64,000 nt of DNA from an uncultured Thermoanaerobaculia bacterium. GTDB taxonomy: Bacteria; Acidobacteriota; JBCCFW01. The stretch is taken from positions 8,240-72,239 of the forward strand of contig CAZTIW010000019.1 in the NCBI GenBank assembly GCA_964613915.1, written 5' to 3'. Below, piece after piece: positions 19,210 to 26,152 of this stretch (the stretch's first letter is position 1; each line of letters begins with the position of its first letter). The notes beneath the pieces are model-generated. The model had not been told where the DNA came from. It worked only from the letters and a program-made list of their open reading frames with translations, and did no database searches. The position numbers and the translations under genes are program-made.

Positions 19210-20712
19210 TCACGCTGGCCTCGCGCGCGTGGCGGCCCACTCGCGGAGCGAGCCCATGTCCTCGGCCATGGTCCGCGACAGCGGCACGGCGTCCGAGATC
19301 ACGGCCATCAGGTCGTCCTGGCTGACGTCCCGATCGAGGGGGAACGCGGCGTGGAGGCCCGCGAGAACGGCCTGCTCGATCTCCGCGCCGGACCATCCGT
19401 TCGTCGCCCGCGCCAGCGCCGGCACGTCGAATCGCGCCGGATCCCGCCGGCGGCGGGCGAGGTGGATGCGGAAGATCTGCTCGCGCTCGGCCAGCTCGGG
19501 GAGATCGATGAAGAAGATCTCGTCGAAGCGCCCCTTGCGCAACAGTTCGGGAGGCAGGTCCCGGATCTGGTTCGCCGTCGCGACCACGAAGACCGGCGCC
19601 GTCTTCTCCTGCAGCCAGGTCAGGAGCGTCGCGAAGACGCGAGCGGTCGTGCCGGCGTCCACCTGGCCGCTGGATCGCGTGCCCGAGAGGCCCTTCTCGA
19701 TCTCGTCCACCCACAGGATCGCGGGCGCGAGCGACTCCGCGGTCTTGATGGCCACGTGCATGTTGGCCTCGGACGCCCCGATGAACGACGAGAACAGCCG
19801 CCCGATGTCGAGGCGCAGCAGCGGCATCTTCCACTCGGCGGCGATGCACTTGGCCGTCAGGCTCTTGCCGCAACCCTGCACGCCCAGCAGGAGCACGCCG
19901 CGCGGGGCCGGCAGGCCGTACGCGCGAGCCTTCTCCGAGAATGCGTGCGATCGATCCGCGAGCCAGGCCTTGAGCCGATCAACGCCGCCGACCGCGCCGA
20001 GCGTGTCGGGTGACTCGAAGTACTCGAGCACGGCGGACTTGCGCAGGACCTGCTTCTTCTCGCCGAGGATGAGCGAGATGTCCTTCTCGCCCAGCGTGGC
20101 GTCGCTGACGATCGCCTTCGCGAAGATGTTCTCGGCCTCGGCCTCCGTCAGGCCCAGCGCTGCCTTGATGACCCGCTCGAAGAGCTCCGGGTCCTCCGGG
20201 GGCTTGACCGTGCCGCGCGGCACCGCCGCGAGGAGCCCTCGCAGGAGCGATTCGAGGTCGCCGGCCGCCGGCAGCGGCAGGTCGAGAACGGTCACGTCCT
20301 TCTCGAGCTCGGGAGGGATCTTCAGCACGGGCCCCGTGACGAGCAGCGTCTTGTAGGACGTGCGCAGGTCGCGCACGACATCGCGCAGCTTGCGGACGAC
20401 GTGCGGATCCTCCACGAACGCGTGCAGGTCGCGCAGGACGAACATGCGTCGCTCGGAGGAGGCGCGGATGGCGTCCAGCGCGGCGATCGGCGTCCGCGTG
20501 TCCTCGCGGAAGGCCGGGTGTTCGAGGCCCGTCGTGCAGGACCAGAACACGATCTCGCGCTGCAAGCGCGTCGCGGCCTCGCGCAGCAGCCGCTCGGCGC
20601 GCCGCTCCTCGTGCGTGACCATCCATGTCATCGGGTAGCGCGCCCTCACCAGCAGCTCGAGTTCCTCGACGATGGGATGCGACGCGGCCGGCAGGGGCGG
20701 TGGCGAGCTCAT
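19210..20712 (-). CDS. Classical AAA+ ATPase (about 250-aa N-domain plus one AAA module)
   Basis: Walker A GVQGCGKS, Walker B ILWVDEIE, and a second region of homology (SRH) with arginine fingers (ATANQIRDLPPELLRKGRFD). The stop abuts the diheme cytochrome c stop in a convergent TGATCA. Confidence 0.8.
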   Translation of the reverse strand: MSSPPPLPAASHPIVEELELLVRARYPMTWMVTHEERRAERLLREAATRLQREIVFWSCTTGLEHPAFREDTRTPIAALDAIRASSERRMFVLRDLHAFVEDPHVVRKLRDVVRDLRTSYKTLLVTGPVLKIPPELEKDVTVLDLPLPAAGDLESLLRGLLAAVPRGTVKPPEDPELFERVIKAALGLTEAEAENIFAKAIVSDATLGEKDISLILGEKKQVLRKSAVLEYFESPDTLGAVGGVDRLKAWLADRSHAFSEKARAYGLPAPRGVLLLGVQGCGKSLTAKCIAAEWKMPLLRLDIGRLFSSFIGASEANMHVAIKTAESLAPAILWVDEIEKGLSGTRSSGQVDAGTTARVFATLLTWLQEKTAPVFVVATANQIRDLPPELLRKGRFDEIFFIDLPELAEREQIFRIHLARRRRDPARFDVPALARATNGWSGAEIEQAVLAGLHAAFPLDRDVSQDDLMAVISDAVPLSRTMAEDMGSLREWAATRARPA

Positions 20713-20824
20713 GGCGCCATTGTAGTGCCCGGGCGATCGCGCCACGAGCGGAGCGCCAGGACCCATGGCCATGGCGCGTCAGGGAGCGGCCTCGGGCGGC
20801 AGGTCTCGCGCCACGTCACCCCCG

Positions 20825-25389: not shown

Positions 25390-25390
25390 G

Positions 25391-26152
25391 TCAGCGAGGC
25401 TCCAGCGGCCAGGGGGCGGGCGGCGGCGGCGGGCCCCAGGTCGCCGCGACCTGCGCGTGACGCAGCCAGCCGTCGAACGCCTCGGGCTCCATCACGAGCA
25501 GGCGCGCCTCCATCAGGTGGTGGCCCGGGCCGCAGAACTCCGCGCAGGGTCCGGGCCACTCGCCCGCGCGCGCCGCGCGCAGTGACAGGGACGTCACGCG
25601 GCCAGGGATCGCGTCGGCCTTCACGCGCAGGTTGGGCAGGAAGAGCGCGTGGATCACGTCCACGGCCGACAGCGACACGGTGACGAGCTCGCCGCGCGGG
25701 ACCACCAGGACGTCGCGCGTCACGACGTCGTCGCCCGTGCCGAACGCGCCGTCGGCGCCCGCATGACGGAACTCCCAGGACCACCGGCGCGCCAGCGCGC
25801 GCACGGGGATGCCGGCCGCGGCGCTGTCGGCGCCGGATGACACGCGGCGCGGCACGATCGCGTCGTAGTCGCGCACGGCTCGGAGCAGGATGCCGGAGTC
25901 AGCGACGACGAAGAGGAGCACCGCGGCGAGGGGCGTCCCGAATCGCGACGGCGGGTCGGCTCGCGCGTGCGCGCGGCGATGCGCTCGGATGAGCTCGAAC
26001 ACCAGCCAGGCGGTCGCGGCCAGCAGGAGAACGCCACACGTGACGCCGGCGTGCGCGAGCGCCGCGTCCACGCGATCGCCGTCCAGCGAGACGTTCTCGG
26101 GAAGTCCCCAGCCTGTTGCCACGGCGACGGCCATCGCGCCTTCTCGGATCAT
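25391..26152 (-). CDS. ctaC: Heme-copper oxidase subunit II (CuA cupredoxin domain)
   Basis: CuA motif CAEFCGPGHHLM with the upstream His (DVIHALF). N-terminal transmembrane helices. One-nt gap to the subunit I start. Confidence 0.8.
   Translation of the reverse strand: MIREGAMAVAVATGWGLPENVSLDGDRVDAALAHAGVTCGVLLLAATAWLVFELIRAHRRAHARADPPSRFGTPLAAVLLFVVADSGILLRAVRDYDAIVPRRVSSGADSAAAGIPVRALARRWSWEFRHAGADGAFGTGDDVVTRDVLVVPRGELVTVSLSAVDVIHALFLPNLRVKADAIPGRVTSLSLRAARAGEWPGPCAEFCGPGHHLMEARLLVMEPEAFDGWLRHAQVAATWGPPPPPAPWPLEPR

What the first reader, a model, noticed from the sequence alone, without database searches (positions are those of the whole stretch)
19210..26152. Heme-copper oxidase operon extended by a radical-SAM/SPASM-like enzyme, a cytosolic beta-propeller and a classical AAA+ ATPase
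These five genes sit on one strand with overlaps or small gaps.
- Subunit II to subunit I: 1-nt gap.
- Subunit I to the radical-SAM gene: about 105 nt.
- Radical-SAM to the beta-propeller: GTGA overlap.
- Beta-propeller to the AAA gene: about 110-nt gap.

I know of no described oxidase-maturation pathway that uses a radical SAM enzyme with an auxiliary Cys cluster. Known factors are Sco, CtaA/B, CtaG, Surf1, CbaX, and NorQ/D for NOR.

The trio could be a novel cofactor or maturation module for this oxidase. It could be a peptide or protein-modifying (RiPP-like) system whose substrate is the Cys-bearing propeller itself. Or it could be an unrelated module hitch-hiking in the operon.

I found no small precursor-peptide ORF in the 23761-23865 gap.
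Basis: partly seen in the sequence, partly recalled or inferred. Interest (0 to 1): 0.75.

Follow-up and report, generated by a model that had tools for sequence, protein, structure and literature searches.

The report
Oxidase genes beside separate AAA cassette
The five same-strand genes are two units lying side by side: an unusual two-subunit heme-copper oxidase, and a radical-SAM/beta-propeller/AAA+ cassette that recurs in other genomes with no oxidase genes next to it, so it is probably not an oxidase-maturation system.

Summary

The favoured interpretation, a new oxidase-maturation module, is not supported by gene-neighbourhood conservation.
- In 9 of 10 loci that carry an orthologue of the AAA+ gene (54-79% identity), a homologue of the ~640-aa propeller lies directly upstream. 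These loci include Myxococcota and Acidobacteriota MAGs.
- The radical-SAM gene precedes the propeller, always with a 4-nt overlap, in only 4 of those 10 loci.
- No ctaC or ctaD homologue occurs in any of the 11 distinct related loci within the flanks held.
- In the two closest relatives the trio starts directly next to a divergent sco1. This window therefore carries an extra 3.3 kb there (a PAS-like gene, ctaC and ctaD).

The radical-SAM protein is a reduced, fast-evolving derivative of an AhbD/NirJ2-like subfamily. A full-length member of that subfamily sits in a hemQ-hemH heme-synthesis operon. The window copy keeps CX3CX2C but only 3 of the 5 AhbD auxiliary-cluster cysteines, and it has no PCP_red domain.

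The oxidase is odd in its own right. Its metal ligands and cross-link Tyr are intact, but the canonical D- and K-channel residues are replaced (D132R, E286Q, K362L).

A heme-related link in this lineage remains possible.

The parts
25391..26152 (-). ctaC-like subunit II of a heme-copper oxidase (253 aa). It has two N-terminal hydrophobic helices, a CuA site (His168 and C-A-E-F-C-G-P-G-H-H-L-M at residues 203-214) and no cytochrome c domain.
   Evidence: PF00116 54.6 bits. TIGR02866 scores 116 bits, below the 147.7 cut-off. The CuA motif was read from the translation.
23866..25389 (-). ctaD-like subunit I (507 aa), closest to A-family oxidases. All six His ligands and the cross-link Tyr are kept. 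The D-channel residues are replaced (N121H, D132R, N139C, S200A, E286Q) and so are the K-channel residues (K362L, T359S, S299G), in R. sphaeroides numbering.
   Evidence: PF00115 330.9 bits. TIGR02891 scores 424 bits, below the 670.75 cut-off. Alignments to mycobacterial, plant and R. sphaeroides subunit I. Residue coordinates.
23761..23865 (-). 105-nt spacer between ctaD and the radical-SAM gene. It is in frame with both, with only the ctaD TGA in between. It holds no independent ORF and no detectable signal.
   Evidence: Only the last ~25 nt resemble the sequence upstream of the orthologous genes in L044 and L047.
22795..23760 (-). Radical SAM protein (321 aa), a reduced AhbD/NirJ2-like enzyme. 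The CX3CX2C motif is C33/C37/C40. The SPASM/twitch-like tail keeps C249, C251, C267, C304, C310 and C313. There is no PCP_red domain.
   Evidence: PF04055 34.5 bits and SPASM 17.4 bits. AhbD 67 bits and NirJ2 61 bits, far below the 500 cut-offs. Cysteine map. AF2 model pLDDT 78.7, with SkfB, PqqE, BtrN, SuiB and anSME among the closest solved folds.
20825..22798 (-). 657-aa cytosolic repeat protein, PQQ/BamB-like tandem beta-propeller. It has a Pro-rich N-terminus (PPPLP) and a conserved C-terminal tail ...RAAFIEF. Its start overlaps the rSAM stop (GTGA).
   Evidence: 45% identity to the L044 partner, which hits PQQ_2 at 40.2 bits against a 27.6 cut-off. Internal repeats span residues ~60-616. 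No hydrophobic N-terminus. Family alignment.
20713..20824 (-). Spacer between the propeller and AAA genes. It is 112 nt with the homologue-supported AAA start and 52 nt with the longer 20772 start.
19210..20712 (-). AAA+ ATPase (500 aa). An N-terminal degenerate AAA-like module without a Walker A is followed by an active classical module: Walker A GVQGCGKS, pore loop F-I-G, Walker B DEIE, sensor-1 N and R-K-G-R-F-D arginines. Its stop abuts the stop of a convergent cytochrome c gene.
   Evidence: PF00004 100.3 bits. Best solved relatives are the D2 domains of Cdc48/p97. The AF2 model (pLDDT 81) aligns over D1+D2 of p97. Invariant motifs; coordinates.
17576..19209 (+). Context: two cytochrome c genes, convergent on the AAA gene.
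   Evidence: Cytochrom_C and Cytochrome_CBB3 hits. Homologues (45-48% identity) follow the rSAM directly in L043.
26116..27677 (+). Context: a PAS-like / Cys-rich ORF (ends 27039, start uncertain) whose stop overlaps the start of sco1 (27042-27677). It is divergent from ctaC.
   Evidence: SCO1-SenC 101.5 bits. Codon-position GC supports the + frame. The PAS-like ORF has no homologue in L044 or L047.
27697..30712 (.). Context: DUF420 (27697-28191, minus strand), a hypothetical gene (28273-28776, plus), ctaA (28923-29843, plus) and ctaB (29840-30712, plus).
   Evidence: The same set and relative arrangement, with sco1 next to the rSAM, is found in L044.

Best explanation
The locus is a juxtaposition of two separate units.

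Unit 1 is a divergent two-subunit A-type heme-copper oxidase (ctaCD). It lies in a region devoted to cytochrome and oxidase biogenesis (sco1, DUF420, ctaA, ctaB, cytochromes c).

Unit 2 is an autonomous cassette. Its core is a widely conserved gene pair.
- One gene encodes a ~640-aa cytosolic tandem beta-propeller ending in an aromatic-L-E-hydrophobic tail.
- The other encodes a Cdc48-like AAA+ protein with a dead N-terminal AAA-like module and a live, pore-loop-bearing module.
- I infer that the pair works as a hexameric protein-remodelling motor, with the propeller as its dedicated adaptor or client, possibly tethered through the conserved tail.

In a subset of lineages, including this one, an AhbD/NirJ2-type radical SAM gene is translationally coupled upstream of the propeller. 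Here that enzyme is a trimmed, fast-evolving derivative. It keeps the SAM cluster and part of the auxiliary-cluster cysteines, but it has lost the tetrapyrrole-associated PCP_red domain.

The cassette is not a dedicated maturation system for the neighbouring oxidase. The adjacency to ctaCD is specific to this genome.

Shown: the gene content, the domain identities and the conservation pattern. Inferred: the motor/adaptor mechanism and the tail docking.
For: 1. AAA orthologues are very conserved. The top 120 hits are 53-79% identical over 93-100% (mostly 97%) of the length.

2. A propeller homologue lies immediately upstream in 9 of 10 AAA-bearing loci (window, L044, L045, L046, L047, L049, L050, L052, L055). 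Support comes from tblastn, from hhalign probabilities of 96.8-100% and from gene tables.

3. The partner's C-terminal [FWY]-[LI]-E-x tail is kept in all nine, although the body is only ~25-45% identical where BLAST aligns it.

4. The rSAM lies upstream, with a 4-nt overlap onto the propeller, only in the window, L044, L047 and L046. L043 has the rSAM without the pair.

5. No ctaC or ctaD homologue occurs in any of L043-L055.

6. In L044 and L047, sco1 is divergent directly next to the rSAM, so there the trio starts its own transcription unit.

7. The AAA has intact Walker A and B motifs, pore loop and arginine fingers. Its fold matches p97 D1-D2.
Against: - The three closest loci (window, L044, L047) all sit next to sco1, with ctaA and ctaB also present in the window and L044. 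L043 sits next to the same cytochrome c pair. A lineage-specific functional tie to heme or oxidase biogenesis therefore cannot be excluded.
- Several related contigs are short (1-6 kb of flank), so ctaCD could lie a little further away or elsewhere in those genomes.
- The loci were picked by me from a hit list. They are few, and three of them are close relatives.
- No experiment or complex model supports the adaptor or tail-docking idea.
- Co-transcription of ctaCD with the trio in this genome is not excluded, because no terminator was found in the 105-nt gap.
Confidence: 0.6

Rival explanations
1. Heme-linked module. The reduced AhbD-like radical SAM makes or handles heme (anaerobic coproheme decarboxylation, or a HemW-like heme-chaperone role) for the cytochromes and oxidase encoded around it. 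The propeller-AAA machine helps load or extract the cofactor. On this reading the reader's idea is right in spirit for this lineage.
For: - The best NCBIfam matches are AhbD and NirJ2.
- The full-length subfamily member of the L046 trio is 61% identical to P0005.
- P0005 sits in an rSAM-hemQ(ChdC)-hemH operon. The literature predicts such an AhbD-like enzyme for anaerobic coproheme decarboxylation (PMC10114771).
- The full-length forms carry a PCP_red domain.
- All four loci with the reduced rSAM lie beside sco1/ctaA/ctaB or cytochrome c genes.
- HemW is a precedent for a radical-SAM-derived heme chaperone.
Against: - The four loci are close relatives, so shared synteny may be simple inheritance.
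- The propeller-AAA pair occurs in five other lineages with no heme, cytochrome or oxidase gene nearby.
- The window rSAM scores 67 bits against the AhbD cut-off of 500. It keeps only 3 of the 5 Cys of the AhbD CX2CX5CX2CX17C motif, which is reported as essential.
- Relatives even change the SAM-cluster spacing to CX4CX2C (P0004, L047) and CX7CX2C (P0007).
Confidence: 0.22
2. RiPP-like or protein-modifying system. The radical SAM installs a cross-link or other modification on the propeller protein (or on an unseen peptide), and the AAA+ unfolds or presents the substrate.
For: - The rSAM stop and propeller start overlap by 4 nt in all four trio loci.
- The propeller has an invariant Cys (C166).
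- The solved folds closest to the rSAM model include the peptide maturases SkfB, PqqE and SuiB.
Against: - There is no precursor ORF in the gaps.
- Sequence-wise the closest families act on tetrapyrroles rather than peptides.
- The invariant Cys is also kept in L045, which has no rSAM next to the pair.
- No RRE-type domain was detected.
- Most propeller-AAA pairs have no rSAM.
Confidence: 0.08
3. The radical SAM gene is a decaying passenger, a pseudo-enzyme with no catalytic role. It is retained only because its 3' end provides translational coupling or expression signals for the propeller-AAA pair.
For: - It is only 37-43% identical to its orthologues in L043, L044 and L047. The AAA gene is 76-77% identical in L044 and L047.
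- It has lost PCP_red and part or all of the CX2CX5CX2C block.
- The usual aromatic residue before the third cluster Cys is missing, and the cluster spacing varies among relatives.
Against: - The ORF is intact with GC3 of 0.87.
- The three SAM-cluster Cys, the GGD/E motif and the beta-hairpin Cys are kept in all relatives.
- The AF2 core is confident.
- It persists alone in L043.
Confidence: 0.1

Closest known systems
AhbD (heme b synthase) and NirJ2, tetrapyrrole-modifying radical SAM/SPASM enzymes
   Same: They are the best-scoring curated families. They share the CX3CX2C motif, the GGE/D motif, the SPASM beta-hairpin cysteines and part of the C-terminal Cys block. A full-length relative of the cassette enzyme lies in a hemQ-hemH operon.
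   Different: The window protein scores 67 and 61 bits against cut-offs of 500. It lacks the first and last Cys of CX2CX5CX2CX17C and has no PCP_red tail. It is coupled to a propeller and an AAA+, not to ahbABC or nir genes.
HemW, a radical-SAM-derived heme chaperone (PMC10114771)
   Same: It is a precedent for a tetrapyrrole-type radical SAM scaffold that has lost its catalytic completeness and serves heme insertion into respiratory enzymes.
   Different: HemW is CgdH(HemN)-like, not AhbD-like. No homology was shown here, and heme binding by the window protein is untested.
NorQ/NorD and CbbQ/CbbO, AAA+ plus adaptor pairs that mature metalloenzymes
   Same: They are two-gene units of an AAA+ motor and a large adaptor. 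NorQD acts on a heme-copper-superfamily enzyme.
   Different: NorQ and CbbQ are MoxR-class AAA+ proteins with VWA-domain partners. Here the motor is of the classical (Cdc48/FtsH/PAN) clade and the partner is a PQQ-like propeller. No MoxR or VWA family hit was found.
Cdc48/p97 with its adaptors, and katanin p60 with the WD40 subunit p80 (the latter from memory)
   Same: The motor is a classical-clade AAA+ that aligns over p97 D1-D2. It is paired with a beta-propeller-containing partner.
   Different: The D1-like module has no Walker A. The protein is bacterial. The partner is encoded in an operon and carries its own conserved C-terminal tail. No ubiquitin-like or microtubule context exists.
A-family cytochrome c oxidase, notably the R. 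sphaeroides E286Q (1M57) and K362M (3OM3) mutant enzymes
   Same: About 40% identity. All heme and CuB ligands and the His-Tyr pair are kept, and subunit II has a CuA site. The natural sequence reads GHPQVY, exactly as in the E286Q mutant.
   Different: The wild-type sequence here carries changes at D132, N121, N139, E286, K362, T359 and S299 at once. It also lacks the Y-S motif in GHPxV (recalled from memory as the mark of the A2 type). No subunit III gene is adjacent. It scores below the CtaD cut-off.

Membership tests
Radical SAM superfamily (PF04055) | Model score above the gathering cut-off, and a CX3CX2C cluster motif | tested here: met
   34.5 bits against 29.5. C33-x3-C37-x2-C40. The partial TIM-barrel model matches solved radical SAM enzymes.
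SPASM domain (PF13186) | Model score above the cut-off and the seven-Cys pattern CX9-15GX4C ... CX2CX5CX3C ... C | tested here: not met
   17.4 bits against 21.5. C249...G262-x4-C267 is present. Of the four-Cys block only the 2nd to 4th remain (C304, C310, C313), with D301 in place of the first. The protein ends before the last Cys. The closest relatives lack the whole block.
AhbD heme b synthase (TIGR04545) | Equivalog score of at least 500 | tested here: not met
   67 bits.
AhbD heme b synthase (TIGR04545) | Auxiliary cluster motif CX2CX5CX2CX17C (PMC10114771) | tested here: not met
   3 of 5 Cys are present.
AhbD heme b synthase (TIGR04545) | Converts coproheme to heme b | not testable with these tools
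   Needs an enzyme assay.
A-family heme-copper oxygen reductase, subunit I | Six His ligands for the low-spin heme, high-spin heme and CuB, plus the cross-link Tyr in GHPxVY | tested here: met
   H62, H241, H290, H291, H376, H378 and Y245 align with the reference residues.
A-family heme-copper oxygen reductase, subunit I | Conserved D channel (D132, N121, N139, E286) and K channel (K362, T359, S299) | tested here: not met
   R92, H81, C99 and Q243 in the D channel; L319, S316 and G256 in the K channel. The TIGR02891 score of 424 is below the 670.75 cut-off.
CuA subunit II (PF00116) | Cupredoxin domain with the H...CxExCxxxHxxM ligands | tested here: met
   54.6 bits. His168 and C203-A-E-F-C-G-P-G-H-H-L-M.
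Classical AAA+ ATPase (PF00004) | Walker A, Walker B, sensor 1, second region of homology with Arg fingers, and an aromatic-hydrophobic-Gly pore loop | tested here: met
   100.3 bits. GVQGCGKS, DEIE, ATAN, RKGRFD and F-I-G are invariant or nearly so in 46 orthologues.
NorQ/NorD-type (MoxR AAA+ plus VWA) metallocentre maturation pair | A MoxR-class AAA+ and a VWA-domain partner next to the target enzyme genes | tested here: not met
   No MoxR-class or VWA family hit. The best hits are FtsH, CDC48 and PAN. The partner is a PQQ-like propeller.
PQQ/BamB-like beta-propeller (PF13360) | Model score above the cut-off; repeated ~40-aa blades | tested here: inconclusive
   The window protein itself has no significant hit. 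Its homologues score 39.6-46.9 bits against 27.6. Internal repeats with a ~77-aa shift span most of the protein. No 3D model could be made.
RiPP radical SAM maturase system | An adjacent precursor-peptide gene and a peptide-recognition (RRE) element | tested here: not met
   No small ORF in either gap. No RRE-type family hit. Peptide-maturase models score below the tetrapyrrole ones.
Anti-phage IetAS (PADLOC) | An IetA AAA+ together with the IetS protease | tested here: not met
   IetA matches only over the generic AAA module (79 bits, residues 279-493). No IetS-like partner was found.

The most novel reading that the evidence does not exclude
The trimmed AhbD-like radical SAM protein, the tail-bearing propeller and the Cdc48-like AAA+ together form a heme- or cofactor-handling machine. 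It would combine a HemW-like role with a NorQD-like role. In this lineage it would serve a previously undescribed A-type heme-copper enzyme that has lost both cytoplasmic proton channels and so probably does something other than proton-pumping O2 reduction.
Probability: 0.1. Interest if true: 0.8.

Novelty: new variant of a known kind. Interest (0 to 1): 0.45.

Why it matters
- It removes a tempting but unsupported claim of a new oxidase-maturation pathway.
- It exposes an uncharacterised two-gene unit found in several phyla: a tail-bearing tandem propeller plus a Cdc48-like AAA+ with a dead first module. Two optional upstream partners were seen, an AhbD-like radical SAM and a T2SS-F-like membrane protein.
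- It shows an AhbD-type heme-synthase scaffold being whittled down. This may be an example of a radical SAM enzyme changing or losing function.
- It flags a natural A-type oxidase that carries the classic inactivating substitutions of both proton channels together. If that pattern is conserved in a family, it bears on how heme-copper enzymes change chemistry.

Tried and rejected
- Word-indexed homologue searches with the rSAM and the propeller returned only the query itself, probably because of their Ala/Pro-rich composition.
- The exact-sequence look-up of the window rSAM found no record.
- The genome-contig scan with the rSAM alignment gave only distant AhbD-like genes at 37% identity or less (mostly 32% or less), most of them haloarchaeal. 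It did not find this genome.
- The metagenome scan with the propeller alignment re-found only L046.
- The afdb50 library was unavailable, so I could not test whether the AAA family equals cyanobacterial Ycf46. The JGI name 'SpoVK/Ycf46/Vps4' is only a broad label.
- An anti-phage reading (IetA, pVip) was rejected, because the hits cover only the generic AAA and rSAM cores.
- The new NOR families (eNOR, sNOR, gNOR, nNOR) were considered for the oxidase and rejected. They lack the active-site Tyr and are B-family-related (PMC11214002). This enzyme keeps the Tyr and is A-like.
- No promoter, terminator, Rfam family or unusual RNA fold was found in the gaps.
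Full report
**What is there**

The window is 70-77% G+C. On the minus strand between 26152 and 19210 lie five ORFs with coding-type codon-position GC (GC3 0.87-0.93).

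- **ctaC-like (26152..25391).** It hits COX2 and carries a complete CuA ligand set.
- **ctaD-like (25389..23866).** It hits COX1 at 330.9 bits.
- **Radical SAM (23760..22795).** It passes the Radical_SAM cut-off (34.5 against 29.5 bits). It misses the SPASM cut-off (17.4 against 21.5 bits).
- **Propeller (22798..20825).** This 657-aa ORF has no significant Pfam hit of its own.
- **AAA+ (20712..19210).** It is a clear AAA protein at 100.3 bits.

For the last gap, the start supported by orthologues is the Met at 20712, which gives 112 nt. The database copy of this protein (P0155, 520 aa) starts 20 codons earlier, at 20772.

No free-standing small ORF lies in the 105-nt gap. The scans found no Rfam family, no unusually stable fold, no terminator-like site between genes and no sigma-70-like site.

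**Surroundings**

- Two cytochrome c genes converge on the AAA gene. The stop codons of the AAA gene and the nearer cytochrome c gene touch (TGA|TCA at 19207-19212).
- On the other side, divergent from ctaC, lies a PAS-like/Cys-rich ORF whose stop overlaps the start of sco1.
- Beyond sco1 come DUF420, a hypothetical gene, ctaA and ctaB.
- No second COX1 gene is in the window.

**Is the trio tied to the oxidase?**

The rSAM and the propeller were singletons in the word-indexed search. A full HMMER scan of 1.84 billion representatives gave only five rSAM relatives below 1e-30. The AAA, in contrast, belongs to a large and very conserved family. The top 120 hits are 53-79% identical over 93-100% (mostly 97%) of the length.

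I read the neighbourhoods of nine AAA orthologues and three rSAM relatives:

| Locus | Arrangement |
|---|---|
| L044 (AAA 77% identical) | ctaB-ctaA-hyp-DUF420-sco1, then divergently rSAM-propeller-AAA |
| L047 (76%) | sco1, then divergently rSAM-propeller-AAA |
| L046 (68%) | a full-length rSAM (SPASM + PCP_red)-propeller-AAA, with no respiratory genes around |
| L045 (67%) | propeller-AAA |
| L049 (59%) | T2SS-F-like-propeller-AAA |
| L055 (58%, Acidobacteriota MAG) | T2SS-F-like-propeller-AAA |
| L050 (60%) | short PQQ propeller-AAA |
| L052 (58%, Myxococcota MAG) | 671-aa protein-AAA |
| L054 (Planctomycetes MAG) | an unrelated 514-aa protein upstream of the AAA |
| L043 | rSAM alone, followed by a convergent cytochrome c pair homologous to the window's |

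Profile comparison shows that the upstream proteins of L049, L050, L052 and L055 are homologues of the window propeller (probabilities 96.8-100%).

A tblastn of all window proteins against these loci found no CtaC or CtaD homologue anywhere. This gives three results.

- The propeller-AAA pair is the conserved core, present in 9 of 10 AAA-bearing loci, counting the window.
- The rSAM is an optional upstream partner, present in 4 of 10. Each time its stop overlaps the propeller start by 4 nt.
- ctaCD is next to the cassette only in this window.

Relative to L044 and L047, this genome has an extra 3.3 kb between sco1 and the rSAM, holding the PAS-like gene, ctaC and ctaD. In those relatives the trio necessarily starts its own transcription unit.

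**The parts**

*AAA+.* The C-terminal module has Walker A, Walker B, sensor 1, arginine fingers and an F-I-G pore loop. All are invariant or nearly so in 46 orthologues. The N-terminal ~200 residues form an alpha/beta-plus-lid module without a Walker A. The whole AF2 model (pLDDT 81) superposes on p97/Cdc48 D1-D2. This looks like a substrate-threading hexamer with a dead first ring.

*Propeller.* It has no signal peptide or membrane segment and is internally repetitive over residues ~60-616. Its homologues hit the PQQ_2/BamB propeller model above threshold. The body is poorly conserved, ~25-45% identical where BLAST aligns it. The extreme C-terminus is not: it reads ...AAFIEF, AAWLEL, AAFLEL, ASFLEL, AVFLEI, RYLEI, GYLEV, AWLEI.., AFLET in the nine loci. 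I infer that this tail tethers the propeller to the motor, as adaptor tails do in other AAA+ systems. This is inference only.

*Radical SAM.*
- Its best curated matches are AhbD and NirJ2, at 67 and 61 bits, far below the 500 cut-offs.
- The L046 trio enzyme scores 262-276 bits on the same models and has SPASM and PCP_red domains.
- The L046 enzyme is 61% identical to P0005. P0005 lies in an rSAM-hemQ(ChdC)-ferrochelatase operon. That is where the literature expects an AhbD-like anaerobic coproheme decarboxylase (PMC10114771). The ancestry of the cassette enzyme is therefore tetrapyrrole chemistry, not peptide maturation.
- The window copy is a reduced form. It keeps CX3CX2C, the hairpin cysteines C249, C251 and C267, and C304, C310 and C313. 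It lacks the first and last Cys of the AhbD CX2CX5CX2CX17C motif, and the PCP_red tail.
- Its three database relatives and the L047 copy lack that Cys block altogether. Three of the four change the SAM-cluster spacing: CX4CX2C in L044 and L047, and CX7CX2C in P0007.
- These rSAMs are only 37-43% identical to the window's, while the neighbouring AAA is 76-77% identical. The rSAM is therefore evolving fast.
- The AF2 model (pLDDT 78.7) is a radical SAM core with a SPASM/twitch-like hairpin. The last 20 residues are unreliable. The closest solved folds include SkfB, PqqE, BtrN, SuiB and anSME.

*Oxidase.*
- Subunit I aligns at about 40% identity with A-family enzymes. It keeps all six His ligands and the cross-link Tyr.
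- In R. sphaeroides numbering it has N121H, D132R, N139C, S200A and E286Q in the D channel, and K362L, T359S and S299G in the K channel.
- The best-scoring solved sequences are the K362M and E286Q mutant enzymes.
- It also lacks the Y-S motif that I recall from memory as the mark of the A2 type.
- It is not one of the recently described NOR families. Those lack the Tyr and are B-family-related (PMC11214002).

**Explanation**

The best-supported reading (about 0.6) is a juxtaposition. A divergent ctaCD pair sits beside an autonomous propeller-AAA+ remodelling cassette, which in this lineage carries a trimmed AhbD-like radical SAM partner.

The main rival (about 0.2) is a lineage-specific heme link. 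All four loci with the reduced rSAM lie beside sco1/ctaA/ctaB or cytochrome c genes. The enzyme's ancestry is heme synthesis. HemW shows that a radical SAM scaffold can become a heme chaperone. Against this, the four loci are close relatives, and the core pair is found elsewhere without any heme genes.

A RiPP or protein-modifying role (about 0.08) and a decaying pseudo-enzyme (about 0.1) remain possible.

**Limits**

- The related loci are few, were chosen by me for contig length, and are partly short.
- The source organism is unknown. A MYXO-CTERM-type hit in L046 and the Myxococcota MAG in L052 only hint at the lineage.
- No propeller structure could be made.
- No transcript or biochemical data exist.

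Noticed in passing
window 23866-25389 (key codons 25147-25149, 25114-25116, 25093-25095, 24661-24663, 24433-24435): The ctaD-like subunit I keeps all metal ligands and the cross-link Tyr. It naturally carries H, R, C, Q and L at the N121, D132, N139, E286 and K362 positions, so both canonical proton channels are gone. Its best PDB sequence matches are the engineered K362M and E286Q mutants.
   Followed up: partly
window 20825-20845; C-termini of the partner genes in L044, L045, L046, L047, L049, L050, L052, L055: The propeller partner of the AAA+ ends in a conserved aromatic-[LI]-E-hydrophobic tail in nine loci from several phyla, although the rest of the protein is weakly conserved. The reduced rSAMs of L043, L044 and L047, and P0007, have a similar ...F-[DE/SF]-F... 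motif near their C-termini.
   Followed up: partly
window 22770-22798 and 20685-20712; the same genes in L044, L047, L046: The propeller and the AAA+ both begin with nearly the same Pro-rich peptide (M-S-S/T-P-P-P-L-P/A/T) in the window clade and L046. A PPP run at the start of both genes could make their translation depend on EF-P, or it could be a shared binding motif. It may also just reflect GC-rich composition.
   Followed up: no
L049 2-346 and L055 3190-4113: In two distant loci a T2SS-F (GspF/PilC-like) membrane-protein gene overlaps the start of the propeller gene. It takes the position that the radical SAM gene has in the window clade.
   Followed up: no
L056 2934-5469 and L057 1194-4026: An AhbD-like radical SAM (SPASM + PCP_red, 461 aa) is followed by hemQ/ChdC and ferrochelatase. 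This is a candidate operon for oxygen-independent coproheme decarboxylation in the coproporphyrin-dependent pathway.
   Followed up: partly
window 23761-23868: ctaD and the radical SAM ORF are in the same frame, separated by a single TGA, with no other stop in the 105-nt spacer. By my own rough estimate this has roughly a one-in-five chance at this GC content, so it is probably a coincidence.
   Followed up: partly
window 19207-19212: The stop codons of the convergent cytochrome c gene and the AAA+ gene abut as the palindrome TGATCA. This leaves no room for a terminator between them.
   Followed up: no
window 26116-27039 (+): An ORF with a PAS-like middle part and a Cys-rich end (...MCSWCCRV...ITHGICPSC...) overlaps the sco1 start. 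It is absent from L044 and L047. With ctaCD it forms the 3.3-kb segment that distinguishes this genome, and it could be a redox or O2 sensor for that segment.
   Followed up: partly
window 20713-20772: The database copy of the AAA+ protein (P0155, 520 aa) starts at 20772. Orthologues support the Met at 20712 (MSSPPPL...), 20 codons downstream.
   Followed up: yes
window 25332-25352 (-): The only terminator-like hairpin in the region (a GC palindrome followed by a T run) lies inside the 5' part of ctaD, not between genes. It is probably a compositional artefact.
   Followed up: no
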